Position numbers and translations under genes: made by a program. The notes under the pieces are model-generated. The model had not been told where the DNA came from and searched no databases. It worked only from the letters and a program-made list of their open reading frames with translations. Positions 1,592-23,273 of a DNA stretch of 39,452 bases are shown here, one piece after another. Source of the DNA: Polyangium sp. (GTDB taxonomy: Bacteria > Myxococcota_A > Polyangia > Polyangiales > Polyangiaceae); the NCBI GenBank assembly GCA_031374535.1, contig JANMGF010000076.1:1-39452 (forward strand). Direction: 5' to 3'. Numbering within the stretch: the stretch's first letter is position 1; each line of letters starts with the position of its first letter.

Positions 1592-4500
1592 ATGCAGCAG
1601 GGGCACGGGGGCGGCGAGTACATCCTCACGGGGCGAGTCGTCGACATCCAGACCGGGCAAGGGCTGCCCGATGTGCGCGTCGAGGCGTGGGACAAGGGGC
1701 GGCTCTGCAACGACCTGGTCGCGTGCGCCTTCTCCGACGCGCTCGGCATCTTCCGCATTGTTCTCGAAACCCGGCTCCTGCGCGAGCTCTTCCTCGACCG
1801 CGTCCCGGTGTTGTTCTTCCGCCTCTTTGAGGGCCCGACCTGCATCGCCAGCACGGAGCGCTCGGTCCTCTGGCGGATCGATCGCCCGAAGAGCGCCGTG
1901 CGAATCGAGATCAACCGCTCAACGAGTACGCGCAGCTTCACCCCGGCACCCTTCCTCGTACGTGGTCGGGTAGTCACGGCCGCAGGGGCGCCACGCGCGG
2001 GCCTCGTCGTGCGCGCCTACAACCGGAACCTCCGAGAGGAGCAGCTCCTCGGCGAGGCCACAACCAGCGACACCGGCAGCTACCGGATTGTCTACGCGGC
2101 CGACAAGCTCATCCAGGATTTCAAGTACAGCGGCGAGTTGCTCGACGTGGCGCTCTTCGATCCCGGCCCCGGACGGGGGCACCGGAAGTCGGCCGCTGAT
2201 CTCGTCGTGCGCGTGTACGCAGAGCGCGCCATCGCCGCCGAGAAGAAGCTCTGCCACGCGCCGCCCACAGCAACCGTGAACCTGGTGACAGGCAGCGAGA
2301 TCTACCGCGGCCCCTCCGCCTACGAGCGCCTTGTTCTTCTTCTGGCCCCTGCCATCCGCGGCGCCTCTCTGACGGACCTCACCGAGGAGGACATTCGCCA
2401 CCTCGCGTGCAGCCTGCGCCTCGATCTGGACGACCTCGACGCCTTCGTCACAGCCACGCAGCTCGCACGCGCCCTCGGGATCCACCCCGCGGCCCTCTAC
2501 GGGTTGTTCCGCGAAGGACTCCCCCGCGAGCGCCGTGCCCTGCTCACGACGAGGCCATCCGAGCAGCTCCGGGCGCTTCTTCTCGCGCTTGAGCACAACC
2601 TGATCCCGGCGACGCTCCGGGAGCATATCGACGCGATCCTCGCAGCGCTCCACAAGGCCGCCGTGCAGCTCGCATTCGAGCCGGCGGAGACCGGGATCTC
2701 TCTGGGCGATCTCCTCGCCATCGCGCTTCCCGCCCGAGATGCGCAGGAAGCGCTGGTCTCGGCCTACCTCCAGTACGAAGGGCCGGTCGAGAGCTTCTGG
2801 CAGGGACTTCGCGAGCACCGGTTGTTCAAAGAAGAAGGGCTCGTCGACTGCGTGCAGCTCGCCCTGCAGCTAGCCACGCTCAGCCGTCAGCACCTGCCCC
2901 TTGTTCGTGCCCTCGACGATTGGCGTCGCAGCGGCATGTGGTCGTCGCTCGCTGATCTCGCCAAGCTCGCCGTCCCCGACTGGCTCGCCCTGCTGGAGAA
3001 GGGCATCGACGGCGCACCCATCGGCGCCCCGCCCGACATGCCTGGCGCCGACGAGAAGAAGAAAAGCACGAACTACGCGCTGCTCTTGACCGACACGCTG
3101 GCGAACACCTTTCCCACGGCCGCGCTCGCGGGGCAGCTCCAGGGCAAGGCGGATCAAGACCTCGCACTGTTCTTGTCGAAGAACCCGGACTTCGAGATCG
3201 GCAAGACCCAGGTGCGCTCCTACTTGCAGGAGAAGCCTGGTGTCCTCGACGGCCTGTCCTCCCCGAAGACCGCGACGGCAAACCTCGAGGCCCTCGAGCG
3301 CCTCTTCAAGGTGACGCCCAGCCCCAGCGAGATAAACACGCTCTTCTCCGCGGGCATCCACTCCGCGCAGAGCATCCAGAAGCTCGGCAAGCCGGCGTTC
3401 ATCAAGTCGTACAGCCAGGTGCTCGGGGGCCAGTCCAAGGCCGAGACCCTCTTCCAGAAGGCCCAGCAGATCACGAGCGGCGCCCTCGCGCTCTTCGGGA
3501 AGTTCGCCTCCATCGCTCGGCCGCCTGGGCTCTATGTCCTCCCCGCTCCGGACCTCGCAAGCACGGGTGACTCCGCCGCGCTCACGGACATCTTCGGCCC
3601 GCAGAACCTCGCGTGCGAGCACTGCGCGTCGATCTACGGCCCTGTCGCCTACCTCGTCGACGTCCTCGACTTCCTCGGCCGCTACCCGGCAACCCAGAAT
3701 AAGCCCAGTGATCCCGCGACGGCCCGTGATGTTCTTCTCGCCCGGCGCCCGGATCTCTCACGCATCGAGCTCTCCTGCGCGAACACCCTGACCGAGGTGC
3801 CGTGCGTGGATCTCGCCGACGAGATCCTCGAGTTCCGCCTCGCCCACGCGGTTGACCCGTCCGTCGTCCTCGACGCGCACATCAAGACCGTGGGCACCGC
3901 GGAGGATCTCGCGCTCTCACCCCAGCCCATCCACGGCAAGGCGCGCTTCACGGCCTACAAGGCGCTCGCGCAGGGGAAGTTCCCCCCGGCGCCGCCGTTC
4001 GACGTCTGGGCCGAGGAGACGGACATCCTGCTCGCGCACTTCGGCACCTCGCGTGCCGAGCTCGTTGACGTCTTCTCCCAGACCCCGGCCACGCCGGCGC
4101 CGCCGGCCCCTGGCCTGCTCGATGCGTTCTCGGCGCTGCTCAAGGAGACCAAGGCGGACGCCTCCGCGTTCTTCTCGGCTGTTGCCGAGCGCGCTGGGAT
4201 TCCTGCTGCGGACCTGGATGTCCTCGTCAGCAAGCTCGGCCTCGTCTTCCCCTCGAGCTTCGAGGACGAGGCAGCAGTCGGCCGCCTCTGGAACGCAATC
4301 CAAGTCGTGAAGGGACTCGGCGTGTCCGCGACGCGGGCCATCTCCTGGGCCACCACAACGGCTCCGATCGAGAGCGCCAACCCCGCCGTGCTCACCGCCC
4401 CGGCTCTTGCCGATGATGTCCGCCTGGCCGTGAAGGCGAAGTACACGGACGAAGCCTGGCCCGACATCGGGCGGGTTCTTCGCGATGGACTGCGCGAACT

Positions 4501-7500
4501 ACAACGAAAGGCGCTGGTCTCTGCCGCGCTCGCGCTGGGCAAGTACGACTCCACGAACGACCTTTTCGCAGAGCTGCTCGTCGACGTGGAGATGAGCCCG
4601 AAGCCGACGACGTCACGCATCCAGCAAGCGATCAGCTCGGTGCAACTCTTCGTGCAGCGCTGCTTCATGGGCCTGGAGCCCGTGGTCACGTCCCTCGACG
4701 ACGAGGCCGCCGCGCAATGGGCGTGGATGAAGAACTACCGGGTCTGGGAGGCCAACCGAAAGATCTTCTTCCACCCGGAGAACTGGATCGAGCCCGAGCT
4801 GCGCGACGACAAGACGCCGTTCTTCAAGGAGCTCGAGAGCGAGCTACTCCAGGGGGATATCACCGACGCCCGCGCCGAGGGGGCATTCCGCAAGTATCTC
4901 CAGAAGCTTTACGATGTGGCGCACCTCGATATCGTCGGCGTGTGCGAGGAGGGGCAGAAGACAGGAAGTTCCTGGATCACGATCCTGCACGTCATCGGCC
5001 GGACGCACATCTCGCCGCGCGTGTACTACTATCGGCAGCGCGTCGACCAGTTGTGGTCGCCCTGGGAGAAGCTCGACCTCGATATCCAGAGCGAGCACGC
5101 CCTGCTCGCCGTCTACAACCGTCGACTGTACTTGTTCTGGGCGCTGCTCGAGGAGGCGGAGGACACCGGGCAAGAAGCGGCACCTGCGCCGAAGGGCGGC
5201 AAGCCCGCGGGCCATAAGAAGCCGAAGGAATACGATCTCGATGATGGGGGCAAACCGCAGCCGGACATCGACCCCGACATCGACGAGCCGCACAAGTCTC
5301 CGGGCCCCAAGGCGCCCGCCATCAAGAAGAAGCCGATGCGGCTCAAGATGGCCTGGAGCGAGTACCAGAACGGCCGTTGGTCACCCCGGAAGACCGGCCC
5401 GGAAGAGCCTCTCCGCCTCGATCTGCCCGAGGGCGACCCGGCTGCGCTGACGTTCTGGAGCACGTACAAGAACGGCCAGCTCGCCATTCTCTGCGCGGTG
5501 AAAGAACTGGCCCCGCCGGATCGAGCGCGCCGGGTGTACGAGCTCGTGCTGGGCTGCGACGGACGCCTGACTGCTGGATCAGCGTCGAATCCATGTCCCA
5601 CGGGCGCGCCGTACGGCACGCACCTCGCGGGAACGGAGTTCATCAAGGACAAGGACACCGCCGGCCTCTGGCTGCGCGGCTTCGTCCTCACCGACAAGGA
5701 CGTGAAGGTCCTCGGGGCGACGCCGAGCGCGTACCGGCTCGTCTGCGCTCAGCGCGGACCGATGCTCTGGACCATGCTTCACGGCGGATTCCCGCACCCG
5801 TCGTTCTTCTACAAGGACGACAGCAGCACCTTCCTCATCCGGATCGAGCACCAGGCCCAAGCGCCCAAGCGCGCGGTGGCGGGAGAGGCGTCCCCCATGA
5901 AGCCGTGGGGACAGGTGCTGCCCGGACTCCCGCCCGCGCCGTCCGAGGGGCCGTTCTACATCCCCAATATCTCGATCGAGCTCGACCCGCGCCAGGTCCA
6001 AATCGAGACGTTCTACCACCCGCACGCCTGCGGCATGCTCGAGGCCCTCGATGGCGACGGCCTCGACGGTCTCTTCCGCTGGCCGGCGGACGGCTCTGCC
6101 CTCCAGCTCCGGAGCGACGTCTACTTCCAGGAGACCTACAAGCCGGCACTCTCCGTGGTGAAGAAGCCGTACCCGGTTGACGATATCGATTTCTCCTCAG
6201 CGGCGGCCTACAGCCAAGACAACTGGGAGGTCTTCTTCCACGCGCCCTTCCTCATTGCCTGCATGCTCATGAAGAACCACAGGCACGAGGAAGCCCAGCG
6301 CTGGTTCCACCGCATCTTCGACCCCACCCCGGGCACTGGCGGCCCGGAGCGGTTCTGGAAGGTGAAACCTCTCCGCGAGAAGGTCGACCCGAAGGCGCTC
6401 GCGGCCGAGCTCGCGGCGCTCGCGGCAGGGGATGATGAAGCCCTCGGGGAGCTTGCGGCGCAGATCAAAGCCTGGCGCGAAGAGCCCTTCAATCCCCACC
6501 TCATCGCACGCATGCGACCGATCGCGTACCAGCGGGCCGTCGTGATGAAGTACATCGACAACTTGATCGCGTGGGGCGACTACTTGTTCTCCCAGGACAC
6601 GCGCGAGGCGATCAACGAGGCAACGGGGCTCTACATCCTCGCCGTGGACATCCTCGGTCCGAGGCCGGAGCAGAACAAGAAAGCCGACGCGGAGCCAAAG
6701 ACGTACGCGGAGCTTCTTGCCGCAGCACCCCTCGCCGGCCTCGAGAACCTCGTGCCCGAGCTCAACGGCGCCGGGGATGTTCCCCTCATCGACACGGCCC
6801 ACTTCGCGATCCCGCCGAACGACAAGCTCCTCGGGTACTGGGATCTCGTCGTGGACCGGCTCTTCAAGGTCAGGCACGGGCTCAACATCGAGGGCCAGGC
6901 ACGACCGCTCCCGCTCTTCGCGCCGCCGATCGATCCGGCCCTGCTGGTGAAGGCCGCGGCAATGGGCGTCGATTGGAAGGACGTCAGCGAGGTCGTGCCG
7001 ATGCCCCACTACCGCTTCGGAGTTCTGCACGCCAAGGCGATGGAGTTCTGCGGCGGCGTGATCGCCCTGGGCGCGGCCCTGCTCTCCGCGCTCGAGAAGA
7101 AGGACGCGGAGAAGCTGACCCTGCTGCGAGCGACGCACGAGGCAGCGGTACTCACCGCTACCCGCGAGGTGAAGAAGCGGCAGATCGACGAGGCGAAGCA
7201 GACGCTCGCGGGCTTGAAGAAGACTCGGGAGGCCGCCGCGATCCGATCCCAGCACTACAAGGGCCTGCCGTTCATGAACTCTTACGAGGAGCAGGCCATG
7301 GTGATGTCAGGCACCGCCGCCATCACCCAGGCCCTCGTCCAGGTCACGCACACCGAGTCAGCGGGGGCCTACCTTCTTCCCACGGCAATCACGGGCGGCG
7401 CCGGCATCGCCAGCCCCGCTGCATTGATCGTGTACGGGGGCGAGAACGCGGCGAAGTCCGGTGAGTCGTTTGGCAACGCCCTCGGCGTGATGGCGTCGTT

Positions 7501-8941
7501 GATGCGCGACGGCGCCGCGATGAGCGCGACGATCGGCTACTACACCCGCCGCGCCGAGGACTGGAAGCTCCAGGCGAAGATCGCCGCCAAGGAGATCGAA
7601 CAGCTCGACAAGCAGATCTTGGCCGCCGAGATCAGGCTCGCGCTCGTAGAGAAAGACCTCGAGAACCACGACCTCATCGTGGAGAACGCCAAGGTCGTCG
7701 AGGCCACGATGCGCGACAAGTTCACCAACGAGGCGCTCTATTCCTGGACGATCAACGAGATCTCGACGGTTTACTTCGACGCGTACAAGCTCGCGCTCGG
7801 CATGACCAGGCGGGCCGCGAAGGCATTCAAGCACGAACTCGCGCAGGACCCCCCGGATGTCTCGCTCACGCACTGGGACAATACGAGAAACGGCCTGCTC
7901 GCAGGGGAGAAGCTGTTGCAGCAGCTCCGCCAGATGGAGGCCGCGTACCTCGACAAGAACAAGCGGGAGTACGAGATCACGAAGCACATCTCCCTCGCGC
8001 AGCTCGCCCCGCAGAAGCTCCTCGAGCTGAAGCAGAAGGGCGTCTGCGAGTTCGACGTGCCCGAGCTCGAGTTCGACCTCGACTTCCCGGGTCATTACCT
8101 GCGGAGGATCAAGACCGTTAGCCTCTCCGTCCCCTGCGTGACGGATGCCTACGGCACGCTCAATGCCACGCTCACGCTCGTGAAGAGCCGGGTTCGGAAG
8201 AGCGCCGACCTCACCGGCGGCTACGCCGAGAAGGTGAACGACGGCCGATTCACCACGCCTTACGTCGCCCCGATCTCGCTCGCCATCAGCGGCGCGCAGA
8301 ACGACGCGGGCGTCTTCGAGCTGTCTCTGCGTGACGAGCGGTTCTTGCCCTTCGAGGGCGCTGGCGTCATCGGCACCTGGAAGATTGAGCTCTCGACGAA
8401 CATCACCGACCTCGACGCCGTGAGCGACGTTGTTCTCCACGTCCGCTACACGGCGAACGATGGCGGAGACTCATTGAAAACCGAAGCGCAGAAGAACGCC
8501 GCGCTGCTCCTATCGGGTCTGCGCTTGTTCTCGTTGAAGGACGAGTTCCCGACGGAGTGGCGCCACTTCCTCACGCCGGATGCCGGCGCAGCACAGACGC
8601 TGGTGCTGCCGCTCGAGAAGAGCGTCTTCCCAAGGTGCCGCAATGGCGGCGCCCCGAAGATCAACGCCGTGCGGATATTCGCCGCCTGGAAAGACCCCAC
8701 GGCGTACTTCGCGGGCACGCCTCTCGCGGTGAGCGTCGTGCCGCCTGCGGCTTCATCCGTGCAGACCACGCTCGTGAAGGACCCCGGCGCTCTCGACAGC
8801 CTGGCCGTGAGCCCGACGCTGACGCCTGCCGCCGGAACATCCTGGGCAGCCGGTTCGTGGACACTCTCGGCTGCGGGCCCCGTGGGCGAGGGCCTCGACA
8901 ACATCTGGGTCCTCTGCGACTTCTCGCGGCAGGGGGCCTGA
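1592..8941 (+). CDS. Tc toxin complex subunit A (TcA-like), about 2449 aa
   Basis: ATG 1592 follows GGGAGG. TcA motifs: CEHCASIYGPVAYLVDVLDFL/RRPDL, TSRIQQAISSVQLFVQRC, WMKNYRVWEANRKIFFHPENWIEPELRDDKTPFF, NWEVFFHAPFLIA, PPNDKLLGYWDLVVDRLFKVRHGLNIEG, a long coiled-coil channel region, FDLDFPGHYLRRIKTVSLSVP and LPFEGAG (TcB-binding domain). Two N-terminal beta-sandwich repeats. Confidence 0.93.
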   Translation: MQQGHGGGEYILTGRVVDIQTGQGLPDVRVEAWDKGRLCNDLVACAFSDALGIFRIVLETRLLRELFLDRVPVLFFRLFEGPTCIASTERSVLWRIDRPKSAVRIEINRSTSTRSFTPAPFLVRGRVVTAAGAPRAGLVVRAYNRNLREEQLLGEATTSDTGSYRIVYAADKLIQDFKYSGELLDVALFDPGPGRGHRKSAADLVVRVYAERAIAAEKKLCHAPPTATVNLVTGSEIYRGPSAYERLVLLLAPAIRGASLTDLTEEDIRHLACSLRLDLDDLDAFVTATQLARALGIHPAALYGLFREGLPRERRALLTTRPSEQLRALLLALEHNLIPATLREHIDAILAALHKAAVQLAFEPAETGISLGDLLAIALPARDAQEALVSAYLQYEGPVESFWQGLREHRLFKEEGLVDCVQLALQLATLSRQHLPLVRALDDWRRSGMWSSLADLAKLAVPDWLALLEKGIDGAPIGAPPDMPGADEKKKSTNYALLLTDTLANTFPTAALAGQLQGKADQDLALFLSKNPDFEIGKTQVRSYLQEKPGVLDGLSSPKTATANLEALERLFKVTPSPSEINTLFSAGIHSAQSIQKLGKPAFIKSYSQVLGGQSKAETLFQKAQQITSGALALFGKFASIARPPGLYVLPAPDLASTGDSAALTDIFGPQNLACEHCASIYGPVAYLVDVLDFLGRYPATQNKPSDPATARDVLLARRPDLSRIELSCANTLTEVPCVDLADEILEFRLAHAVDPSVVLDAHIKTVGTAEDLALSPQPIHGKARFTAYKALAQGKFPPAPPFDVWAEETDILLAHFGTSRAELVDVFSQTPATPAPPAPGLLDAFSALLKETKADASAFFSAVAERAGIPAADLDVLVSKLGLVFPSSFEDEAAVGRLWNAIQVVKGLGVSATRAISWATTTAPIESANPAVLTAPALADDVRLAVKAKYTDEAWPDIGRVLRDGLRELQRKALVSAALALGKYDSTNDLFAELLVDVEMSPKPTTSRIQQAISSVQLFVQRCFMGLEPVVTSLDDEAAAQWAWMKNYRVWEANRKIFFHPENWIEPELRDDKTPFFKELESELLQGDITDARAEGAFRKYLQKLYDVAHLDIVGVCEEGQKTGSSWITILHVIGRTHISPRVYYYRQRVDQLWSPWEKLDLDIQSEHALLAVYNRRLYLFWALLEEAEDTGQEAAPAPKGGKPAGHKKPKEYDLDDGGKPQPDIDPDIDEPHKSPGPKAPAIKKKPMRLKMAWSEYQNGRWSPRKTGPEEPLRLDLPEGDPAALTFWSTYKNGQLAILCAVKELAPPDRARRVYELVLGCDGRLTAGSASNPCPTGAPYGTHLAGTEFIKDKDTAGLWLRGFVLTDKDVKVLGATPSAYRLVCAQRGPMLWTMLHGGFPHPSFFYKDDSSTFLIRIEHQAQAPKRAVAGEASPMKPWGQVLPGLPPAPSEGPFYIPNISIELDPRQVQIETFYHPHACGMLEALDGDGLDGLFRWPADGSALQLRSDVYFQETYKPALSVVKKPYPVDDIDFSSAAAYSQDNWEVFFHAPFLIACMLMKNHRHEEAQRWFHRIFDPTPGTGGPERFWKVKPLREKVDPKALAAELAALAAGDDEALGELAAQIKAWREEPFNPHLIARMRPIAYQRAVVMKYIDNLIAWGDYLFSQDTREAINEATGLYILAVDILGPRPEQNKKADAEPKTYAELLAAAPLAGLENLVPELNGAGDVPLIDTAHFAIPPNDKLLGYWDLVVDRLFKVRHGLNIEGQARPLPLFAPPIDPALLVKAAAMGVDWKDVSEVVPMPHYRFGVLHAKAMEFCGGVIALGAALLSALEKKDAEKLTLLRATHEAAVLTATREVKKRQIDEAKQTLAGLKKTREAAAIRSQHYKGLPFMNSYEEQAMVMSGTAAITQALVQVTHTESAGAYLLPTAITGGAGIASPAALIVYGGENAAKSGESFGNALGVMASLMRDGAAMSATIGYYTRRAEDWKLQAKIAAKEIEQLDKQILAAEIRLALVEKDLENHDLIVENAKVVEATMRDKFTNEALYSWTINEISTVYFDAYKLALGMTRRAAKAFKHELAQDPPDVSLTHWDNTRNGLLAGEKLLQQLRQMEAAYLDKNKREYEITKHISLAQLAPQKLLELKQKGVCEFDVPELEFDLDFPGHYLRRIKTVSLSVPCVTDAYGTLNATLTLVKSRVRKSADLTGGYAEKVNDGRFTTPYVAPISLAISGAQNDAGVFELSLRDERFLPFEGAGVIGTWKIELSTNITDLDAVSDVVLHVRYTANDGGDSLKTEAQKNAALLLSGLRLFSLKDEFPTEWRHFLTPDAGAAQTLVLPLEKSVFPRCRNGGAPKINAVRIFAAWKDPTAYFAGTPLAVSVVPPAASSVQTTLVKDPGALDSLAVSPTLTPAAGTSWAAGSWTLSAAGPVGEGLDNIWVLCDFSRQGA

Positions 8942-8943
8942 TC

Positions 8944-11900
8944 ATGGAGGGCGTGCCGAAGCGGTCCTCGGTCATCCCCAGGCCGACGGCGAAGGCGCCG
9001 AACCCCTCGCTGCCCAAGGGCGGCGGTGCGGTGCGCGGGCTCGGGGAGAAGTTCAACGCGAACCTCGCCATGGGCACGGGCACGTTCAACGTCCCGATCG
9101 CGACGACGCCTTGCAAGGGCCTCACGCCCGAGCTCGCGCTCACCTACGACTCGGGGACCGGGAACGGCCCCTTCGGCGTCGGCTGGCACCTCTCGGTCCC
9201 GTCCATCACCCGCAAGACGGACAAGGGCCTGCCCGAATATACCGACCACTGGGACACGGATACGTTCATCCTCTCCGGCGCCGAGGACCTTGTTCCGGTG
9301 CTCGGTCCAGATGGGAAGAAGCTGATCACCACCGAGCAGGGCCGGAGGATCCAGCGCTATCAGCCTCGCGTCGAGGGGGCCTTCGCCCTCGTCGAGCGCA
9401 TCACCGAGGCGAGCGCCCATTACTGGCAGGTGATCATGAAGGACAACATTCGGCACATCTACGGCAAGTCGAAGACTGCCCGGGTTGCCGATGCATTGTA
9501 CCCAGACCGGATCTTCACCTGGCTCCTCGAGCGCACGGAGGACGCGCGGGGAAACATCATTCAGTACGAATACAAGGCCGAAGACCTGGCAAACGTGCCG
9601 AAGTCTCTCCACGAGAAGCACCGGCACGAGGAGCCCAAGCTCTTCTCGAATAGCTACTTGAAGCGCATTCGGTACGGGAACAAGAAGCCCGGCGAGGCCG
9701 ACGACTTCTACTTCCAGGTCGTCTTCGACTACGGCGAGCACGAGGCCGAGACCCCGGGGCCGGACGAGGTGAAGCCGTGGCCCTGCCGGAAGGACCCGTT
9801 CTCGAGCTACAGGGCCACCTTCGAGATCCGCACCTACCGCCTCTGCCGGCGCGTTCTGGTCTTCCACCACATCCCCGAGCTCGGCGCGGAGCCCGTGCTC
9901 GTGCGCTCGACGGACCTTGCCTATGTCGAGGCGCCGACCCTCTCGCAGCTCGTCGCGGTCACGCAGTCGGGGTACATCAAAAAGAACGGCGGCTACACGA
10001 AGAAGTCGCTGCCGCCGCTTGAGCTCGGCTACTCCCTGCCCGAGCTCCATACCGAGATACATACCGTCGACCCGGAGTACACGGCGGACCTCGGCAACTT
10101 CGACGGCAAGCGGGCGCGGTGGGTTGATCTCGAAGGCGAGGGGCTGCCCGGGGTTCTTGTCCAGCACGGCGAGGGCTTGTTCTACAAGCAGAACCTCGGC
10201 GAGGCCGAGCTCGCGCCGGCCAGGCAGCTCATGCGCCGTCCCAATGCCCTTGCACCCACCATGGGCCGCACGGAGCTTCTGGATCTCGAGCACGAAGGCC
10301 GCCCGTGCCTCGTGTTCTTCAACAGGACCGGCTCAGGGATTCACGAGCGCACCGTGGATGGCGAATGGGGGCCGTTCATGCCCTTCACATCCCATCCGAA
10401 CATCCCCTGGAACGATCCGGGCGTGCGCTTCATCGACATTACCGGCGACGGCCAGCAGGACATCATCTTCACGAGCGGGCACGTGCACATCTGGTTTCCC
10501 TCGCTCGGCAAGAAGGGCTGGGGGCCGCCGCGCAATCTGCCGATGGTCTTCGACGAGGACCTGGCGCCAACGGAGGTGTACCGGGACAATCGAGGCATTG
10601 TCTTCGTCGCGGACATGACCGGCGACGGCATGCCCGACATCGTGCGGATCAAGAACGGCAGCATCTGCTACTGGCCAAACCGTGGTCTTGGGCGGCTCGG
10701 GCCCAAGATCGAGATGAGCAACGCGCCTCGGTTTGATGACCCGGTCCGTTTCGATCCTCGGCGCATCCGGCTCGCGGACATCGACGGCTCGGGCACGACG
10801 GACATCCTCTACATCGGCGCCGACGGGATCCAGATCGCCTTCAACCAGGCGGGGAATAGCTGGAGAAAGGTCGAGAAGCTGCCGGGGTTCCCGACGGCCG
10901 ACCTCGGGTCGCCGATCTCGGTGCTCGACTTCCTGGGTACGGGGACGGCGTGCATCGTCTGGTCCTCGCCCTGGAAGGGCGTGGCGCAGCCGCCGATGCG
11001 GTACATCGACCTCTTGGGCTCGAAGAAGCCGTACTTGCTCACTTCGGTGAAGAACAACCTTGGGGCGGAGATGAAGCTCGAGTACGCGCCCTCGACGAAG
11101 TTCTACCTGGAGGACTTGAAGAACGGGACGCCCTGGATCACGCGACTGCCCTTTCCGGTGCATGTGCTCGCCCGCGTGGAGACCCACGATGCCGTGAGCG
11201 GCACGAGGTTCGTCAGTACATACAATTACCACCACGGCTACTACGACAGCGCGGAGAAGGAGTTCAGGGGGTTCGGCCTTGTAGAACAATGGGATGCAGA
11301 ATCATTCTCCGAGAACGAGCACCACCTATCGCCGGTCCTGACGAAGACGTGGTTTCATACGGGCGCGTTCTTCGAGAAGGACAAGATCGAGAACCAGTTC
11401 GCGAGGGAGTACTACGCGCACAACGCCCAGGCGCCTGGACTTGCCGAAGCTGTTCTTCCCCAAGGCATGAGCCCGAGGGAGGCACGGGAGGCTGCGCGAG
11501 CCCTCAAGGGCCAGATGTTGCGGCAGGAGATCTACGGGCTCGACGGCTCGCCGCAGCAAGAGCACCCGTACCTCGTCACCTCGGCCAGTCACGAGATTCG
11601 CAAGCTGCAGCCGGCCACGGACAAGGCGCATGCGGTCTTCTTCCCGTACGTCCGGGAGAAGTTCGAGGCCCACTACGAGCGAAATTCGAAGGATACGCGC
11701 GTCGTCCACACCCTGGCGCTCGAGGTTGATGCCTTCGGTCACGTGACCCGCGCCGCGACAGTTGCCTACGCCCGCCGGAACATGGAGCTGCCCGAGCAGG
11801 GCCTGCTCGCCACGATCACCGAGGCCACGGTGGCGAACGAGCCCGCCCAGTCGGGCTTCTACCGCCTCGGGGTGCCCGTCGAGACCCGGGCGTACGAGCT

Positions 11901-14900
11901 CACGGGCCTCGTGAAGACGCAGAGCGCGTGCTTGGCGTTCGCCGACGTCCTCGCCTCGGTGAACAACGCGGCGACCATCCCCTACGAGGCCGCCCTCGAT
12001 GGCAGCCTCCAGAAGCGCCTCGTCGAGCACGTGAGGCACCTCTACTGGGACAGCTCGACCCTGGCCGGCCCGCTGCCTCTCGGGGCGGTGGACGGGCTTG
12101 CGCTGCCCTACGAGACCTACACGCTCGCTTTCACGCCGGGGCTGCTCGCGGCGGCATACGGCTCGCGCGTCACGCCGCAGCTCCTCGCCGAGGGCGGGTA
12201 CGTCGAGCAAGACGGCTTGTTCTGGATCCGGAGTGGACGGGAGACCTTTGATCCGACCAGGTTCTACTTGCCGATCGAGGTCACAGACCCCCTGGGACAA
12301 ACCACGGAGATCGGCTACGACAGCTACAACCTGCTCGTGGTCTCGGTGGTTGATCCCCTGGGCACCGAGATCACGGCGGAGAACGACTACCGCACGATGT
12401 CCCCGGTCCTGGTTACCGACCCGAACAAGAACCGCACCGCGGTAGAGCTCGACGAGCTCGGGCTGGTCGTGGCCACGGCGGTCATGGGCAAGGTCGGCGC
12501 GGGCGAAGGGGACACGCTCGCGGAGCCGACCACTACGTTCGAGTACGATCTCGAGCGCTGGTGGAAGGACAAGAAGCCGAACGTCGTGCACGCAGCGGCG
12601 CGCGAGCGGCATGGAGATCCCGGCACGCCCTGGCAGCACCGCTACACGTACCTCGACGGGCTCGGGCGCGAGGTCATGAAGAAGGTCCGCGCCGAGGCCG
12701 GGCCCGTGCCGAAGCGGGACCAGAACGGCATCCTGGTCAAGGATGGGCAGGGGCAACTCGTCCTCGAAAGCACGACCGTCCGCTGGGTGGGGACGGGACG
12801 AACCGTGTTCGACAACAAGGGCAGTCCGGTCAAGAAGTACGAGCCCTTCTTCAGCGCGACGCACGAGTACGAGGACGAGAAGGACCTCGTCGAGTGGGGC
12901 GTGACGCCGATCCTCCGGTACGACCCCCTGGGGCGCCTCGTCAGGACCGATCACCCGAACGGCACGTTCTCCCGTGTGGAGTTCACGCCCTGGAAGCAGA
13001 GGAGCTGGGACGAGAACGACACATTGCTGGAGAGCGCGTGGTACGCGGCCCGGCAGGCCGGCGCCTCGCCCTTGCCCTCACCCCAGGAGCAGCGGGCCGC
13101 ACTGCTCGCCGCGAAGCACGCCGGCACCCCGGCGGCGCTTCACCTGGATGTCCTGGGCCGGCCGGTCGTGAAGGTCGAGGACAACGGGGCCTCGGGGAAG
13201 TACACGACCGCGACGACGCTCGACATCGAGGGCAACCCTCTCGCCGTCACCGACGCCCGAGGCAATACGGCAATGGCGCAGCTCTTCGACATGCTGAGCC
13301 GGCCGCTCAGCCAGAAGAGCATCGACGCGGGCGAGCGGTGGACCTTCTTCGACGTGCTCGGCAACCCGATCCGGAGCTGGGACAGCCGCGGGCATGTCGT
13401 CCGCTCAGTCTACGATGCCCTTCACCGGCGCACGGAGCTCTGGGTGCAGAAGGACGCGGGCGCGGAGATCCTGGCGGAGAAGACGAGCTACGGCGAAGGG
13501 CAGCCGAACGCGCAGGCCGTGAACCTGCGCGGGAAGACGTACCAGGTCAGGGACGGCGCTGGCCTCGTCACGCACGTGGCCTACGACTTCAAGGGCAACC
13601 CCCTCGAGGTGCACAGGCAGCTCGCCAAGAACTACAAGGTCGACATCGACTGGTCTGCGTCGCCGGTGCTCGAGGCGGAGACGTTCGTCCAGAAGACACA
13701 ATACGACGCGCTCAACAGGCCGACGAGCCTCACCACGCCGGACCAGAGCGAGGCCAGGCCGAAGTACAACGAAGCGGGCCTGCTCGAGCAGGTAGAAGTG
13801 CGGCTGCGCGGGGCGGTCAACTGGACGACGTTCGTCGACGATATCGATTACGACGCGAAGGGGCAGCGGGAGAAGCTCGTCCACGGAAACGGCGTCGTCA
13901 CCGAGTACAGCTACGACCCGCTCACGTTCCGGCTGACGAGGATCAAGACGACCAGGCCCTCGGACGGGGCGCTTTTACAAGACCTTCGCTACACTTACGA
14001 CCCCGTCGGCAATATCGTCGAGATCGCGAACCTCGCGCAGAAGACCGTCTTCAACAACGGGCCTGTCGATCCGGTCTGGGAGTACAAATACGACGCCTTG
14101 TACAGGCTGATCGAGGCGACAGGCCGCGAGCATGCGGGCCAGAACGCCGACATCCAGCAGGACGAGGGCGGCTTCCCGCTGCTCAACTTGCCGCACCCGA
14201 ACGACCCGCAGGCGCTCCGGAACTACACCGAGCGCTACAAGTACGACGCGGTCGGCAACATCGAGAAGATGATCCACGAGGTCGTGGGCCTCGCGGGGAG
14301 CTGGACGCGGCGCTACGACGTCGCGCCGGAGAACAACCGGCTGCTCCGCACGAGCCTTCCCGGTGACGCGGACGGGGAATTCTCGGCGAAGTACGGCCAC
14401 GACGCTCACGGGAACATGACCTCGATGCCTCACCTGCAACTCATCGGGTGGGACTTCAAAGACCAGAAGCGCGCGGTCGACAAGGGCGGCGGCGGTAAGG
14501 TGTACTTCACCTACGACGCCGCGGGGCAGCGGGTCCGGAAGGTCTGGGAGCACAGCGGGATCGTCGAGGAGCGGATCTACCTTGGAGGCTTCGAGATCTA
14601 CCGGAGGAGCGAGGCGGGCTCCCTGGTCCTCGAGCGCGAGACGCTCCACGTGATGGACGGGGCCCAGCGCATCGCCCTGGCCGAGACGAAGACCGTGGAC
14701 GCCTCGGTGCCGAACCTCGCGGTGTCGTCGCGCGTGCGCTACCAGCTCGGCAACCACCTCGGCTCGGCCACGCTGGAGCTCGACGAGGCCGGCCTGGTCA
14801 TCTCCTACGAGGAATACCACCCCTTCGGGACGACGGCCTTCCACGCGGCGGCGAGCGGCGTGGAGGTCAGCGCGAAGCGGTATCGGTACACGGGCAAGGA

Positions 14901-15963
14901 GCGGGACGAGGAGACGGGGCTCTACTATCACGGGGCGAGGTACTACGCGCCGTGGCTCGGGCGGTGGACGAGCGCGGATCCGGCGGGGATGGTGGATGGG
15001 CCGAACCTCTATCAATATGCGTTGTGTAACCCCATCCGGCTACTCGATCCCACGGGTACCCAGGCAATACCACACGGCGACGAAGGCACGGGTGGTTATG
15101 GCCCGGGGGGTTCGGGTGCAGAAGGCTCAGGTCCTGGGAGGGCGCGGCGGCCGGATGAGGACGTAGAACTCCCGCCTCCAGATGAGGCCCCAGCTCCCTC
15201 ACCGCCCCCCCAAGAGAAGGTCCCGCCGACGAAGCCGGAGCAGAAGGGACGCGTGCCGGAGGAACTGCTCAAGGCGGCGGAGAAGGGAGCGATCAAGGTC
15301 GCCGCCGACAAGCCTGGCGCTAAGGATCTGACCGCGGAACAGCGCCAGTTCGCGGTCAAATACTTCCTCTATGCCGTGGACGAGCTCGTGAAGCGCGGGC
15401 TTCCTGTGCGCAATGCTCTCCTGCTCGTCGCCCAGACAGGCATGGAGACGTCCTATGGCCGGAAGCCCACAGAGAAACAACCGAACCCGAACGTCCCGCA
15501 CCACAATTATTTATCCTTTCAACCACAAGAAAGACAACAAGAAGCGCTTGTGAAGATGCGGGTTACAATTCTTGTCGAGCCAAGGATAAACAAGCCTGGA
15601 GGAGAACCACAACCAACTCCAGTTCCCCACTTCGCGGACATCCGCCAGTCCATCGCGGCACAGCTCGACGTAGCGTATGGCATCGGACGGGCGGACACCG
15701 TGGCGCCATGGCCGCAGCTTGGCCGGGAACTGGCCAATGCAGGGGCTACGCCCGCGAGCTATGCGACCCTAGCAGATAACGTGCAGTACTCCGGCACGCC
15801 GTACATGCCCAAGGATCCGAGTGCGTGGAACTTCTCGAAGGAGTACGCCAGAAGTCTGGCAGTCATCTCATCGGCATTAAACAGCCTACCGGAGGGGCTC
15901 AGCCCCGAGACGAAGGCATGGGCGGCCGCCCTGGCCGCGGAGTTGCTGCCGAAGAGGAGATAG
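8944..15963 (+). CDS. TcB-TcC fusion: SpvB-like N-terminus, FG-GAP-like repeats, RHS/YD repeats, RHS core, C-terminal variable cargo (about 2339 aa)
   Basis: ATG 8944 lies 2 nt after the TcA stop. SLPKGGGAVRGLGEKF, YDSGTGNGPFGVGW, DPFSSYRATFEIRTYRLCRRVLVFH, DxTGDGxxD repeats, EFRGFG, RHS core YRYTGKERDEETGLYYHGARYYAPWLGRWTSADP and autoprotease end NPIRLLDPTG (to 15057). Confidence 0.95.
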   Translation: MEGVPKRSSVIPRPTAKAPNPSLPKGGGAVRGLGEKFNANLAMGTGTFNVPIATTPCKGLTPELALTYDSGTGNGPFGVGWHLSVPSITRKTDKGLPEYTDHWDTDTFILSGAEDLVPVLGPDGKKLITTEQGRRIQRYQPRVEGAFALVERITEASAHYWQVIMKDNIRHIYGKSKTARVADALYPDRIFTWLLERTEDARGNIIQYEYKAEDLANVPKSLHEKHRHEEPKLFSNSYLKRIRYGNKKPGEADDFYFQVVFDYGEHEAETPGPDEVKPWPCRKDPFSSYRATFEIRTYRLCRRVLVFHHIPELGAEPVLVRSTDLAYVEAPTLSQLVAVTQSGYIKKNGGYTKKSLPPLELGYSLPELHTEIHTVDPEYTADLGNFDGKRARWVDLEGEGLPGVLVQHGEGLFYKQNLGEAELAPARQLMRRPNALAPTMGRTELLDLEHEGRPCLVFFNRTGSGIHERTVDGEWGPFMPFTSHPNIPWNDPGVRFIDITGDGQQDIIFTSGHVHIWFPSLGKKGWGPPRNLPMVFDEDLAPTEVYRDNRGIVFVADMTGDGMPDIVRIKNGSICYWPNRGLGRLGPKIEMSNAPRFDDPVRFDPRRIRLADIDGSGTTDILYIGADGIQIAFNQAGNSWRKVEKLPGFPTADLGSPISVLDFLGTGTACIVWSSPWKGVAQPPMRYIDLLGSKKPYLLTSVKNNLGAEMKLEYAPSTKFYLEDLKNGTPWITRLPFPVHVLARVETHDAVSGTRFVSTYNYHHGYYDSAEKEFRGFGLVEQWDAESFSENEHHLSPVLTKTWFHTGAFFEKDKIENQFAREYYAHNAQAPGLAEAVLPQGMSPREAREAARALKGQMLRQEIYGLDGSPQQEHPYLVTSASHEIRKLQPATDKAHAVFFPYVREKFEAHYERNSKDTRVVHTLALEVDAFGHVTRAATVAYARRNMELPEQGLLATITEATVANEPAQSGFYRLGVPVETRAYELTGLVKTQSACLAFADVLASVNNAATIPYEAALDGSLQKRLVEHVRHLYWDSSTLAGPLPLGAVDGLALPYETYTLAFTPGLLAAAYGSRVTPQLLAEGGYVEQDGLFWIRSGRETFDPTRFYLPIEVTDPLGQTTEIGYDSYNLLVVSVVDPLGTEITAENDYRTMSPVLVTDPNKNRTAVELDELGLVVATAVMGKVGAGEGDTLAEPTTTFEYDLERWWKDKKPNVVHAAARERHGDPGTPWQHRYTYLDGLGREVMKKVRAEAGPVPKRDQNGILVKDGQGQLVLESTTVRWVGTGRTVFDNKGSPVKKYEPFFSATHEYEDEKDLVEWGVTPILRYDPLGRLVRTDHPNGTFSRVEFTPWKQRSWDENDTLLESAWYAARQAGASPLPSPQEQRAALLAAKHAGTPAALHLDVLGRPVVKVEDNGASGKYTTATTLDIEGNPLAVTDARGNTAMAQLFDMLSRPLSQKSIDAGERWTFFDVLGNPIRSWDSRGHVVRSVYDALHRRTELWVQKDAGAEILAEKTSYGEGQPNAQAVNLRGKTYQVRDGAGLVTHVAYDFKGNPLEVHRQLAKNYKVDIDWSASPVLEAETFVQKTQYDALNRPTSLTTPDQSEARPKYNEAGLLEQVEVRLRGAVNWTTFVDDIDYDAKGQREKLVHGNGVVTEYSYDPLTFRLTRIKTTRPSDGALLQDLRYTYDPVGNIVEIANLAQKTVFNNGPVDPVWEYKYDALYRLIEATGREHAGQNADIQQDEGGFPLLNLPHPNDPQALRNYTERYKYDAVGNIEKMIHEVVGLAGSWTRRYDVAPENNRLLRTSLPGDADGEFSAKYGHDAHGNMTSMPHLQLIGWDFKDQKRAVDKGGGGKVYFTYDAAGQRVRKVWEHSGIVEERIYLGGFEIYRRSEAGSLVLERETLHVMDGAQRIALAETKTVDASVPNLAVSSRVRYQLGNHLGSATLELDEAGLVISYEEYHPFGTTAFHAAASGVEVSAKRYRYTGKERDEETGLYYHGARYYAPWLGRWTSADPAGMVDGPNLYQYALCNPIRLLDPTGTQAIPHGDEGTGGYGPGGSGAEGSGPGRARRPDEDVELPPPDEAPAPSPPPQEKVPPTKPEQKGRVPEELLKAAEKGAIKVAADKPGAKDLTAEQRQFAVKYFLYAVDELVKRGLPVRNALLLVAQTGMETSYGRKPTEKQPNPNVPHHNYLSFQPQERQQEALVKMRVTILVEPRINKPGGEPQPTPVPHFADIRQSIAAQLDVAYGIGRADTVAPWPQLGRELANAGATPASYATLADNVQYSGTPYMPKDPSAWNFSKEYARSLAVISSALNSLPEGLSPETKAWAAALAAELLPKRR

Positions 15964-15965
15964 CG

Positions 15966-16889
15966 ATGTCGGCGTGCAAGGGAAGCGGGCGTCGAAAAAC
16001 GTCTGGGGCGGTAGGTGACCAGTCTTGGCTGACCACCGTGCTGCTGGTCTCGTGCCCGGTCATGCTGGTCGGGCCGTCCTGCGCGGGTTGCCCCGGCGAT
16101 ACACGCCAGGAAGCGGTTCCCAGCTCGGTTTCCGGGGCACAGAACAATTTCGATGGAGGCCCGAATATCACAACCCCGGCCACTCCCACTGTCAGCATTC
16201 CGAGCGTGGAGACGGATGCCTCGACGACCGTAGCACCCTTGAGAGGCACCACGGAGGGTTGCCCCGCTGGCATGGCCAGGATTGAAGGGGGCACGTTCGG
16301 TCAGCGGAAGAATCGGAAGGTCAAGCCATTCTGCATGCAGCGGACGGAGGTTACGCTCGCGCGGTACGCCGAGTGCGTGGCTGCCGGCGGATGCGAAGCG
16401 CCGGCCCAGGGGGAAGCATGCAACTGGGGCGTCGCCGGACGGGAATCGCACCCAATCAACTGCGTCACGTACAAACAGGCGAGCACCTATTGCAACTGGA
16501 TCGGCGCGCGGTTGCCTAGCGAGGACGAATGGGAATGGGCTGCCCGCGGGCGCTCGGCAGCAATGAAGTATCCGTGGGGTGATGTGCCGCCGTCCAAACA
16601 GCTATGCTGGTCCGGGGCCGAACCGCGGACCAGCACTTGCCCCGTTCGCTCTTTTCCAGAAGGCGACTCCCCTGACGGAATCAGCGACCTGAGCGGCAAT
16701 GTATCGGAATGGACGTCAACCCGTGGGCCCGCGCGTAGTGAACGTTCGCCTTTCTCGTACGTTGTTCGTGGCGGATGGTGGAGTATGGACATCCCGGACC
16801 TCTTTCGAGCAGACGTCACGAACTTCAGCGAACCAGCCAGCGCCTTTGACGGCCGCGGATTCCGATGCGTCGCGGACATGAATCGCTGA
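15966..16889 (+). CDS. FGE-sulfatase (SUMF1-like, C-lectin fold) domain protein with N-terminal hydrophobic/Cys segment; candidate immunity protein
   Basis: CPAGMARIEGG, TEVT, HPINCVT, RLPSEDEWEWAARG, YPWG, DLSGNVSEWT, RGG..GFRC. ATG is 2 nt after the RHS stop. Confidence 0.88.
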   Translation: MSACKGSGRRKTSGAVGDQSWLTTVLLVSCPVMLVGPSCAGCPGDTRQEAVPSSVSGAQNNFDGGPNITTPATPTVSIPSVETDASTTVAPLRGTTEGCPAGMARIEGGTFGQRKNRKVKPFCMQRTEVTLARYAECVAAGGCEAPAQGEACNWGVAGRESHPINCVTYKQASTYCNWIGARLPSEDEWEWAARGRSAAMKYPWGDVPPSKQLCWSGAEPRTSTCPVRSFPEGDSPDGISDLSGNVSEWTSTRGPARSERSPFSYVVRGGWWSMDIPDLFRADVTNFSEPASAFDGRGFRCVADMNR

Positions 16890-17042
16890 CCCTGCCAGAG
16901 CGCGCTTCCTGTAGGTACAGCGATAGCCTGCGAACGGCAGAGCCGGACGGCACGAGCCTCGAGGCGACGCAGGTTCGCCGCAGACACTGCACGTGCCCAG
17001 TCTGCCCATGCCTACGCCGAGTACAATCAAAAACGAGGCCAC

Positions 17043-17864
17043 ATGAACCTGCGCCACGTCGTTGCCGCTCTTACCCTCACACTTCTTCTCCCCGCTTTTG
17101 CGATCCTGCCCTCATGCAGCGACCCTGCGTGCGAGGACGGCGGCGAGGGCTGCCCGTGTACGACGGGCGTCGAGTGCGGCAGGCCGCCCGCCTGCACAGG
17201 CTGGATCTGCGACGGCACCTGCCACAGCTTCAACGAGCGCGTGGGCTTCCGCTGCATGATGGATTCCTGCCCTGGCCCGGACAAGTGCCCCGGCGTGTGC
17301 GACGGCGCGGGCACGTGCATCGGGTGCCTGCAGGACGCAGACTGCAAGCCGGGGCATACCTGCGAGCCCGGGAACCTGTGCTCGCAGTGCGATGACGGCG
17401 CGAAGAACGGGGACGAGACCGACGTCGACTGCGGCGCCTCATGCCCACTCTGCCCGGGGACGTGCAACGTGGATGCTGACTGCCCAGGTGGGTACTGTTG
17501 GGATGGCCTCTGCGTCCGATGTGACGATGGGATCCAGAACGGGGACGAATCGGGCGTCGACTGCGGCTCTTTGCTTGGCCACTGTCCCGTCTGCACCGGT
17601 TACAAGTGCGAAACCGACGAGCAATGCGCGACGGGCATCTGCGCTGCCGTTGGGGTCTGCTGCAAGGTCGTGTGCGACGGCTGCCAGCAGTGCGAGGTCG
17701 ATGGGGAATGCGTCCCGATCGCCGGTCCCATACCATGGGCCGACTGCCTCCCCGGACAGCTATGCGGCCTTGGTGGGACCTGTGTGTGGAAGGACGGTTA
17801 TCCCTGCACGAAAAACGAGGATTGCTTCAACCTCGTCTGCTCGAACGGGATCTGTGGATTCTAG
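17043..17864 (+). CDS. Cys-rich exported lipoprotein of myxobacterial type
   Basis: Signal peptide ending LPSC; two CDDGxxNGDExxVDCG repeats; very many Cys; GAGG RBS. Confidence 0.85.
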   Translation: MNLRHVVAALTLTLLLPAFAILPSCSDPACEDGGEGCPCTTGVECGRPPACTGWICDGTCHSFNERVGFRCMMDSCPGPDKCPGVCDGAGTCIGCLQDADCKPGHTCEPGNLCSQCDDGAKNGDETDVDCGASCPLCPGTCNVDADCPGGYCWDGLCVRCDDGIQNGDESGVDCGSLLGHCPVCTGYKCETDEQCATGICAAVGVCCKVVCDGCQQCEVDGECVPIAGPIPWADCLPGQLCGLGGTCVWKDGYPCTKNEDCFNLVCSNGICGF

Positions 17865-20300: not shown

Positions 20301-20331
20301 TTGGACGGGTCGCCCGTCTCGGCGCGTGTTT
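20301..20331 (+). promoter_or_regulatory. 31-bp element, copy 1 (putative ECF promoter, upstream of the ECF gene)
   Basis: TTGGACGGGTCGCCCGTCTCGGCGCGTGTTT; 27/31 identical to 21614-21644. Confidence 0.6.
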
Positions 20332-20337
20332 GTAGTC

Positions 20338-21582: not shown

Positions 21583-21613
21583 CCAGCCTCTTGCACGGGG
21601 GCGTACACTTTCC

Positions 21614-21644
21614 TTGGACGGGTCGCCTGCGTCGGCTCGTGTTT
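21614..21644 (+). promoter_or_regulatory. 31-bp element, copy 2 (putative ECF promoter for the downstream cluster)
   Basis: TTGGACGGGTCGCCTGCGTCGGCTCGTGTTT, ending 14 nt before ATG 21659. Confidence 0.6.
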
Positions 21645-21658
21645 AGAGAGTAAGGGAC

Positions 21659-23272: not shown

Positions 23273-23273
23273 C

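What the first reader, a model, noticed from the sequence alone, without database searches (positions are those of the whole stretch)
1592..16889. Tc (ABC) toxin complex with a lysozyme/GH73-like cargo and a coupled exported partner: candidate antibacterial Tc toxin-immunity system
Seen: TcA, then a TcB-TcC fusion, then an FGE-fold gene, each separated by only 2 nt. After the RHS cleavage motif DPTG, the ~301-aa cargo (15058-15963) has a Gly/Pro linker and then ALLLVAQTGMETSYG...HHNYLSFQ...HFADIRQSIAAQLD...QYSGT. Known: GH73/FlgJ glucosaminidases follow AQAxLES/TGWG...NNLFGIK...F..Y.S..ES...YATD, with the Glu catalytic (here codon 15445-15447). Characterised Tc toxins deliver anti-eukaryote enzymes and need no immunity gene. 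Inference: a peptidoglycan-hydrolase cargo plus an adjacent exported protein fits a Tc injection machine aimed at the bacterial periplasm, for predation or kin competition.
Basis: partly seen in the sequence, partly recalled or inferred. Interest (0 to 1): 0.85.

Follow-up and report, generated by a model that had tools for sequence, protein, structure and literature searches.

The report
Bacteria-targeting Tc toxin with immunity
A myxobacterium carries a toxin syringe of a type known for killing insects, but loaded with a predicted cell-wall-cutting enzyme and followed by a likely antidote gene, so it likely attacks other bacteria.

Summary
Observation confirmed. TcA (1592-8941), a TcB-TcC fusion (8944-15963) and an FGE-fold gene (15966-16889) lie 2 nt apart. 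The 32-kDa cargo has a GH73 fold: on a pLDDT-94 model the five best structural matches are peptidoglycan glucosaminidases (Z 9.7-11.6), and Glu at 15445 is kept in 32 of 33 family sequences.

Cargo plus next gene is a swappable cassette. Of eight intact same-genus loci with this short TcA, five carry GH73-like + FGE. Three carry a phage-type lysozyme + an unrelated lipoprotein-like gene, between flanks that match the window again. Cargo and FGE are predicted to bind (0.88; best control 0.00). Other Tc loci in the genus and phylum carry Ntox28 or other cargos with SUKH, Imm33 or CPCC genes; one elsewhere has RNase + CdiI.

Best reading (0.75): a polymorphic Tc toxin-immunity system that injects a wall hydrolase into the periplasm of rival bacteria. 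A 2021 survey found no immunity genes in Tc loci but excluded B-C fusions.

Not shown: expression, release, outer-membrane passage, killing, rescue. Against: one Flavobacteriaceae locus has this cargo without a partner, and this TcA lacks 550-800 shell residues.

The parts
1592..8941 (+). TcA translocator, 2449 aa, short form. N-terminal transthyretin/CarboxypepD_reg-like beta-sandwich region, reduced helical shell, ABC_toxin_N, neuraminidase-like domain, channel region, TcB-binding domain. No signal peptide visible.
   Evidence: Pfam; 14 solved TcA sequences at E<=1e-60; lacks about 550-800 residues against 7 longer relatives; dN/dS 0.18-0.29 against 7 sister loci
8944..15057 (+). TcB-TcC fused shell (SpvB, beta-propeller, midN/midC, RHS repeats, RHS core)
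   Evidence: Pfam, NCBIfam TIGR03696; dN/dS 0.18-0.22 against 7 sister loci
14977..15057 (+). RHS self-cleavage motif (DPAG...DPTG) with both aspartates
   Evidence: sequence; role recalled from Tc/Rhs literature
15058..15249 (+). Gly/Pro-rich linker at the start of the cargo
   Evidence: sequence; variable between relatives
15250..15963 (+). GH73-like (lysozyme-fold) glucosaminidase cargo domain. Predicted catalytic Glu 15445-15447, conserved Asn 15505-15507 and Tyr 15787-15789.
15966..16889 (+). FGE-fold protein, 307 aa, 14 Cys. Basic then hydrophobic N-terminus with lipobox-like Cys30 or Cys42, a Ser/Thr/Pro tether, and the FGE domain at about 16242-16886. No Cys in the loop where FGE catalytic cysteines sit. 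Predicted periplasmic immunity protein.
15039..17031 (+). Exchangeable cassette (cargo + partner). DNA identity to sister loci with other cassettes stops at 15012-15038 and resumes at 17032-17043; GC3 is 0.68-0.71 against 0.88-0.90 in TcA and the shell.
17043..17864 (+). Cys-rich exported/lipoprotein-like gene, a conserved right-hand neighbour of these Tc loci whatever the cargo; role unknown
   Evidence: tblastn found it in 8 of 34 loci searched, all 8 from the same genus

Best explanation
This locus encodes a Tc (ABC) toxin complex whose cargo has a GH73 peptidoglycan-glucosaminidase fold and sits in an exchangeable cassette with an FGE-fold gene, and it likely works as an antibacterial toxin-immunity system. 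Shown here: gene layout, domain content, conserved Glu/Asn/Tyr, the cassette swap and purifying selection. Predicted by models: the GH73 fold and the cargo-FGE complex. Inferred from known Tc mechanism: the B-C shell encloses and self-cleaves the 32-kDa cargo, docks on a TcA pentamer, and is released by lysis (no signal peptides). Inferred and untested: TcA binds a Gram-negative rival, crosses the outer membrane and threads the cargo into the periplasm, where it refolds and cuts the glycan strands; the FGE lipoprotein in kin periplasm binds the beta-hairpin and the Tyr loop beside the cleft and blocks it.
For: Fold: pLDDT 94.1 model. The top 5 of 48,161 chains are GH73 enzymes, Z 9.7-11.6; best is T6SS effector 4kt3_A, Z 11.6, rmsd 3.0, 139 aligned; chitinases reach Z<=5.1. 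Foldseek's listed ranks 1-14 are all GH73, though best E is only 4.4e-3. The family HMM hits FlgJ 3vwo at E 0.0011 with the Glu in register. Atlas neighbours are PF01832, score 0.94, 177-178 shared features. Glu 32 of 33, Asn 31 of 33, Tyr 24 of 28 sequences. One family member is fused to PG_binding_1 and one hits PF01832 at 1.7e-5. Swap: among 8 short-TcA loci (window + 7), 5 have GH73-like + FGE and 3 have PF00959 lysozyme (E 1e-8 to 1e-11, above cut-off) + an unrelated gene overlapping by 4 nt. The TcA-shell side is 91-94% identical and the right flank 80-86%. All 8 partners have a hydrophobic N-terminus with lipobox-like Cys and 10-21 Cys; 2 of 17 partners of other cargos met the same crude Cys pattern. 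Binding: score 0.88, best of 3 controls 0.00; this mark was reached by 116 of 157 solved and 2 of 215 mismatched pairs; runs agree in at least 77% of contacts, partner pLDDT at least 89. Window versus G001: 6 of 11 cargo changes fall in 26 interface residues (p 3e-4) and 4 of 10 FGE changes in 32 (p 0.045). The six best FGE matches in the genus are all cargo-linked. Wider clade: Ntox28 + HEAT, SUKH (below cut-off), Imm33-like; RNAse_A_bac + CdiI_2 and an orphan cassette with Cys_rich_CPCC; 5 of 55 TcA N-termini carry PG_binding_1. Precedent for FGE immunity: 10.1101/2021.05.21.445229.
Against: No experiment shows killing, hydrolysis, rescue or outer-membrane passage. L044 (Flavobacteriaceae MAG) has the same cargo family (31% identity) with TcA directly behind it and no FGE hit in the 21-kb locus. 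Of 36 complete cargos outside the genus in the genome contigs survey, 22 are followed directly by TcA, so immunity genes are not general in this clade. FGE paralogues are common: 14 contigs of this genome, 15 of 15 genus genomes. The 8 loci are kin and amount to about two independent cassette types. Interface enrichment may partly reflect variable surface loops, and the predictor saw the same sequences. The listed interface does not include Glu66 or Tyr180 themselves. This TcA lacks 550-800 residues of shell. Cargo pI is 6.9, under the pI>=8 guideline of PMC6868009, although PMC7861908 reports 36.5% of cargos below 7. No holin/endolysin cassette was recognised in the window.
Confidence: 0.75

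Rival explanations
1. Cargo and FGE are a true antibacterial effector-immunity pair, but the shortened TcA does not inject. It acts as a surface-binding carrier, or the B-C shell enters prey by another route (contact, vesicles, another secretion system).
For: TcA lacks 550-800 shell residues. All solved TcAs matched are from insect- or animal-associated bacteria. PMC3482391 lists SpvB-RHS polymorphic toxins with immunity genes without naming TcA.
Against: Channel region and TcB-binding domain are intact. TcA is under purifying selection and stays coupled to B-C in all 8 loci. B-C starts with the SpvB/propeller module and shows no signal peptide or PAAR hit.
Confidence: 0.12
2. A conventional anti-eukaryote Tc (against amoebae, nematodes or fungi) whose lysozyme-fold cargo attacks chitin or another glycan; the FGE gene is a passenger.
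For: All characterised Tc toxins target eukaryotes, per PMC7861908 Discussion. FGE genes are abundant in the genus. One long-TcA locus (L008) has a cargo without a coupled partner.
Against: GH73 matches score Z 9.7-11.6 against <=5.1 for chitinases. The alternative cargo is a phage-type lysozyme. A eukaryotic cytosol holds neither substrate (established knowledge). The partner changes with the cargo and is predicted to bind it.
Confidence: 0.06
3. The hydrolase serves the producer or its mobile element (lysis to release the complex, or wall opening during element transfer), with the FGE protein as a regulator.
For: The locus lies in a mobile island with primase-polymerase, RecA, RadC and DndB genes. 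Tc toxins elsewhere are released by lysis (title seen in the reference list).
Against: The enzyme occupies the cargo slot behind the self-cleavage site. The same slot holds nuclease-type toxins with classical immunity genes in related loci. The domain also ends other RHS proteins.
Confidence: 0.05

Closest known systems
Insecticidal Tc/ABC toxins (Photorhabdus TcdA1-TcdB2-TccC3, Xenorhabdus XptA, Yersinia YenTc)
   Same: TcA with neuraminidase-like, channel and TcB-binding regions; TcB/TcC RHS shell, self-cleavage motif, cargo of 20-35 kDa; polymorphic C-terminus.
   Different: B and C are fused. TcA has an extra N-terminal beta-sandwich region and a shorter middle section (residues 1193-1514 against 1168-1759 in 6rw8). 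The cargo is a wall-hydrolase fold, and a cognate partner gene travels with it. PMC7861908 found no immunity genes in Tc loci and left out B-C fusions.
T6SS GH73 effector-immunity pair of Pseudomonas protegens (PDB 4kt3; name Tge2-Tgi2 recalled)
   Same: Best structural match of the cargo (Z 11.6, rmsd 3.0, 139 aligned); adjacent effector and immunity genes.
   Different: Only 12% identity; delivered by T6SS; its immunity protein is not FGE-fold (recalled; it is not among the FGE hits).
Tsi3-type FGE-domain T6SS immunity proteins (Lopez et al., 10.1101/2021.05.21.445229)
   Same: FGE fold without the catalytic cysteines, encoded beside an effector, protecting by direct binding.
   Different: Tse3 is of unknown activity and T6SS-delivered, and tsi3 is usually on the opposite strand. 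Here the partner is co-oriented, lipoprotein-like and paired with a GH73 fold. Direct homology to Tsi3 was not tested.
'TcdB/TcaC' polymorphic toxins of Zhang et al. 2012 (PMC3482391)
   Same: SpvB + beta-propeller + RHS scaffold with variable toxins and immunity genes, including in deltaproteobacteria.
   Different: Defined there with a signal peptide. 'TcdA', 'TcaA' and 'toxin complex' do not occur in the 300,000 characters held. Tox-Glucosaminidase is listed only for T6SS/PVC, with no immunity protein.

Membership tests
Tc (ABC) toxin complex | TcA with ABC_toxin_N, neuraminidase-like and TcB-binding domains and channel region | tested here: met
Tc (ABC) toxin complex | TcB and TcC shell (SpvB, propeller, RHS) next to tcA | tested here: met
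   fused, 2 nt after tcA
Tc (ABC) toxin complex | RHS self-cleavage motif and 20-35 kDa variable cargo | tested here: met
   DPAG...DPTG, 32.3 kDa, variable between loci
Tc (ABC) toxin complex | Complete outer shell and pentameric pore that translocates cargo | tested here: inconclusive
   550-800 residues shorter than relatives but under purifying selection; no model of TcA was made
Tc (ABC) toxin complex | No immunity gene, eukaryotic target (current view, PMC7861908) | tested here: not met
   a coupled, co-swapped partner is present in 8 of 8 short-TcA loci; the target itself is untested
GH73 glucosaminidase (PF01832) | Lysozyme-like fold with beta-hairpin lobe | tested here: met
GH73 glucosaminidase (PF01832) | Catalytic Glu with conserved Asn and Tyr | tested here: met
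   Glu 32 of 33, Asn 31 of 33, Tyr 24 of 28; Glu in register with FlgJ
GH73 glucosaminidase (PF01832) | Pfam score above curated cut-off (30.2 bits) | tested here: not met
   window cargo has no hit; best relative 25.9 bits, E 1.7e-5: a divergent branch
GH73 glucosaminidase (PF01832) | Cuts peptidoglycan glycan strands | not testable with these tools
   needs an enzyme assay
Polymorphic toxin-immunity system | Constant carrier, exchangeable C-terminal toxin, partner gene changing with the toxin | tested here: met
   orphan cassettes in L012, L014, L119
Polymorphic toxin-immunity system | Partner binds and neutralises the toxin | tested here: inconclusive
   binding predicted, 0.88 against best control 0.00; neutralisation not testable
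Catalytic formylglycine-generating enzyme | Two copper-binding active-site cysteines | tested here: not met
   no Cys in the corresponding loop (position recalled) in 6 of 6 aligned domains; far below NCBIfam cut-offs for enzyme families

The most novel reading that the evidence does not exclude
A distinct, widespread branch of Tc toxins, with B-C fusions and TTR-like or peptidoglycan-binding N-termini on TcA, is a diffusible interbacterial injection weapon. It occurs in Myxococcota, Bacteroidota, Acidobacteria, Planctomycetes, Firmicutes and some archaea. It punches the outer membrane and delivers wall hydrolases to the periplasm, or nuclease-type toxins onward, each with its own immunity gene. 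This locus is a minimal-shell version specialised for wall hydrolases.
Probability: 0.55. Interest if true: 0.92.

Novelty: new variant of a known kind. Interest (0 to 1): 0.82.

Why it matters
Tc toxins are held to be anti-eukaryote machines without immunity genes (PMC7861908 Discussion; PMC13018210 still describes ABC toxins as targeting insect cells). A Tc loaded with wall hydrolases and cognate periplasmic antidotes would add a new delivery route to interbacterial warfare. It would explain why TcA genes occur in free-living myxobacteria (23 of 401 phylum genomes) and many other environmental lineages. It raises a testable question: how a Tc pore handles a bacterial outer membrane. It also gives a first enzyme class for an FGE-fold immunity protein and an unnamed lysozyme-inhibitor candidate.

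Tried and rejected
Direct sequence searches with the single cargo found nothing in Pfam or PDB; the 7-sequence profile found only a chance PDB hit. The metagenome scan with the cargo alignment confirmed none of 83 candidates. Word-based protein searches found only 1 and 2 relatives. The cargo was found in 4 of 14 other genomes of the genus and not found with this query in 46 other relatives. Motifs that looked to me like SleB-type (L054, L074) and M14-type (L093) wall enzymes got no supporting Pfam or NCBIfam family (one weak AstE/AspA hit, E 0.04), so they are not counted as evidence. The next two FGE paralogues (L126, L127) have no toxin beside them. Earlier scan findings: 3 look-ups, nothing. 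The atlas look-up for the TcA N-terminus did not complete, so its ligand is open. Literature: 10 searches listed no paper whose title or abstract opening describes an antibacterial Tc toxin; subscription journals are mostly not covered. PMC7861908 supplements (2 files held) contain no 'lysozyme', 'Glucosaminidase' or 'Polyangium' and one Sorangium row; other supplements were not seen.
Full report
Observation. Pfam confirms the TcA domains PF18276, PF20220 and PF18413, the SpvB, midN, midC, FG-GAP and RHS domains of the fusion, and PF03781 for the third gene. TcA matches 14 solved TcA sequences at E<=1e-60. The window is a whole contig of G000. The closest named records are Polyangium, at 88-95% identity over the TcA C-terminus, so the host is a Polyangium-like myxobacterium.

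Cargo fold. The cargo is 301 aa and 32.3 kDa, inside the 20-35 kDa range given for the cocoon (PMC6868009, passages). It has no Pfam or PDB sequence hit on its own. The atlas placed it next to PF01832 glucosaminidases (0.94; 177-178 shared features). A profile search of 1.84 billion representatives gave 33 proteins at E<=0.001. A 30-sequence alignment gave a model of pLDDT 94.1. Its five best matches among 48,161 chains are GH73 enzymes, Z 9.7-11.6, led by a T6SS effector (4kt3_A, Z 11.6, rmsd 3.0, 139 aligned); chitinases reach 5.1 at most. Foldseek lists only GH73 enzymes in ranks 1-14, though none reaches E<=0.001. An earlier 5-sequence model was inconclusive.

Cargo residues. In an alignment of 33 sequences (7 of A3 plus 26 representatives; short fragments and P0002 left out) the Glu at 15445 is kept in 32 of 33, Asn in 31 of 33 and Tyr in 24 of 28. 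These are the E, N, Y marks listed for Tox-Glucosaminidase in PMC3482391 (passage). The family HMM hits FlgJ (3vwo, E 0.0011) with the Glu in register. Of 24 representatives scanned, one is fused to PG_binding_1 and five have weak PF01832 hits, the best 1.7e-5 and all below cut-off. The cargo is therefore a divergent GH73-like domain; activity on peptidoglycan is inferred.

Cassette. TcA occurs in 10 of 15 genomes of the genus, 20 matches in all; I fetched the 19 outside the window. Seven are intact loci of the window's short-TcA type, seven are long-TcA loci with a complete cargo, and five are cut by contig ends. Among the 8 short-type loci, 5 carry the GH73-like cargo + FGE gene and 3 carry a PF00959 lysozyme (E 1e-8 to 1e-11) + an unrelated gene overlapping the stop by 4 nt. 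Against these three, DNA identity to the window is 91-94% up to 15012-15038, breaks, and resumes at 17032-17043 at 80-86%. Cargo and FGE share a low GC3 (0.68, 0.71) against 0.88-0.90 in the carrier genes. TcA and shell are under purifying selection (dN/dS 0.18-0.29 and 0.18-0.22, 7 pairs). Two unrelated wall-hydrolase families filling the same slot, each with its own partner, is the strongest single argument. The loci are kin and count as about two independent events.

Partner. All 8 partners have a hydrophobic N-terminus with a lipobox-like Cys and 10-21 cysteines; 2 of 17 partners of other cargos met the same crude pattern (no SignalP was available, so export is inferred). The FGE domain has no Cys in the loop where enzyme cysteines sit (position recalled). 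FGE-fold proteins protect against a T6SS effector by direct binding (10.1101/2021.05.21.445229; abstract, introduction and most of the results read). The cargo-FGE complex scored 0.88, best of 3 controls 0.00. That mark was reached by 116 of 157 solved and 2 of 215 mismatched pairs, counts that hold only roughly with my own alignments; runs agree in at least 77% of contacts, partner pLDDT at least 89. None of the 25 solved FGE-like sequences is named as a glycosidase inhibitor, so recall of a like complex is unlikely. The interface covers the beta-hairpin and the loop next to the conserved Tyr, against the variable C-terminal loop of the FGE domain. Between the window and G001, 6 of 11 cargo changes and 4 of 10 FGE changes fall in that interface (p 3e-4 and 0.045); for two distant cargos the enrichment was not significant. 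FGE paralogues are common in the genus, but the six closest are the cargo-linked ones.

Wider clade. In the genus, 5 of the 7 long-TcA loci have a short gene within 20 nt of the cargo stop; L009 has one 528 nt away and L008 none; L012 and L014 have orphan cassettes. TcA was found in 23 of 401 phylum genomes. Of 20 such loci fetched, 6 gave a complete cargo, all 6 followed within -4 to +22 nt by a small gene; families were Ntox28 + HEAT, SUKH (below cut-off), Imm33-like and a weak REase. Among 80 genome-contig loci, 36 outside the genus gave a complete cargo: 22 are followed directly by TcA, 12 by a short ORF and 2 by nothing listed. One is an RNAse_A_bac + CdiI_2 pair. L044 has the window's cargo family without a partner. 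Five of 55 TcA N-termini carry PG_binding_1; many others carry TTR/CarboxypepD_reg-like domains as the window does.

Mechanism. Inferred from Tc biology: the shell encloses and cleaves the cargo, docks on pentameric TcA, and leaves the cell by lysis, since no signal peptide is visible. Inferred from cargo and partner: the target compartment is the periplasm. A wall hydrolase needs only to cross an outer membrane, and an antidote anchored in the periplasm protects siblings there. Consistent with this, the eight wall-hydrolase cargos have no strongly hydrophobic stretch (max 0.44-1.05) while 13 of the 17 other cargos exceed 1.2. Unexplained: this TcA lacks 550-800 residues of the shell found in 7 longer relatives, its receptor is unknown, and no lysis cassette was recognised. 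Confidence 0.75; rivals are non-injective delivery (0.12), a eukaryotic target (0.06) and self-lysis (0.05).

Prior knowledge. PMC7861908 (passages, Discussion and 2 supplement files seen) found no immunity genes in Tc loci, concludes that Tc toxins target eukaryotes, and excluded B-C fusions. PMC3482391 (abstract and passages) lists SpvB-RHS 'TcdB/TcaC' toxins with immunity genes but not a TcA syringe. PMC13018210, PMC13340143 and 10.1101/2021.10.19.465003 were seen as passages only. Ten searches listed no report of an antibacterial Tc toxin; the library lacks most subscription journals, so prior description is not excluded.

Verdict. A real Tc locus, and a new variant of a known kind: the parts are known, while their combination and the likely bacterial target are not described in what I could search. 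Interest 0.82.

Noticed in passing
window 114-1229 (+); L029 2-3601: The polA-like ORF matches the end of a 1200-aa ORF in L029 whose N-terminal part looks like a primase/helicase (recalled resemblance), i.e. a replication gene of a mobile element. Upstream context differs between sister loci.
   Followed up: partly
window 20326-39253: Island-type genes: ECF sigma factor, PD-(D/E)XK nuclease, DndB, a RecA, Mg-chelatase/ComM-like ATPase, MoxR-vWA pair, DUF6744, RadC, Druantia DruA.
   Followed up: no
G004 (L016, L021) and G005 (L018, L023): Single genomes carry two copies of the short-TcA element with different cassettes, one GH73-like + FGE and one lysozyme + other lipoprotein.
   Followed up: partly
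L018:4521-5255 (-), L019:14797-15507 (+), L021:14797-15507 (+): Cys-rich lipoprotein-like partners of the lysozyme cargos have no Pfam or NCBIfam family (2 of 3 scanned): candidate new lysozyme-inhibitor family.
   Followed up: partly
L016:14818-16311 (+): The partner holds two FGE domains in tandem, as in poly-immunity proteins.
   Followed up: no
L012 15145-17130, L014 740-1687, L119 17086-17997: Orphan RHS-core/C-terminal cassettes downstream of the main gene; the one in L012 is interrupted by an insertion sequence.
   Followed up: partly
L032, L045, L074, L092, L100 (TcA N-termini): PG_binding_1 domains on TcA, five repeats in the archaeal MAG locus L074.
   Followed up: partly
L031, L074, L089: Tc loci in archaeal MAG records (Methanoperedens, Methanosarcinales, Nitrosocosmicus); binning not checked.
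   Followed up: no
L054:1510-1989 and L075:1430-1897: The same small gene lies between cargo and TcA in two loci with unrelated cargos: likely an accessory factor, not cognate immunity.
   Followed up: no
P0007, P0010, P0017, P0020, P0021, P0029, P0030: The GH73-like domain also occurs behind an uncharacterised N-terminal region, Ig-like by eye, with one weak pilus-protein hit.
   Followed up: no
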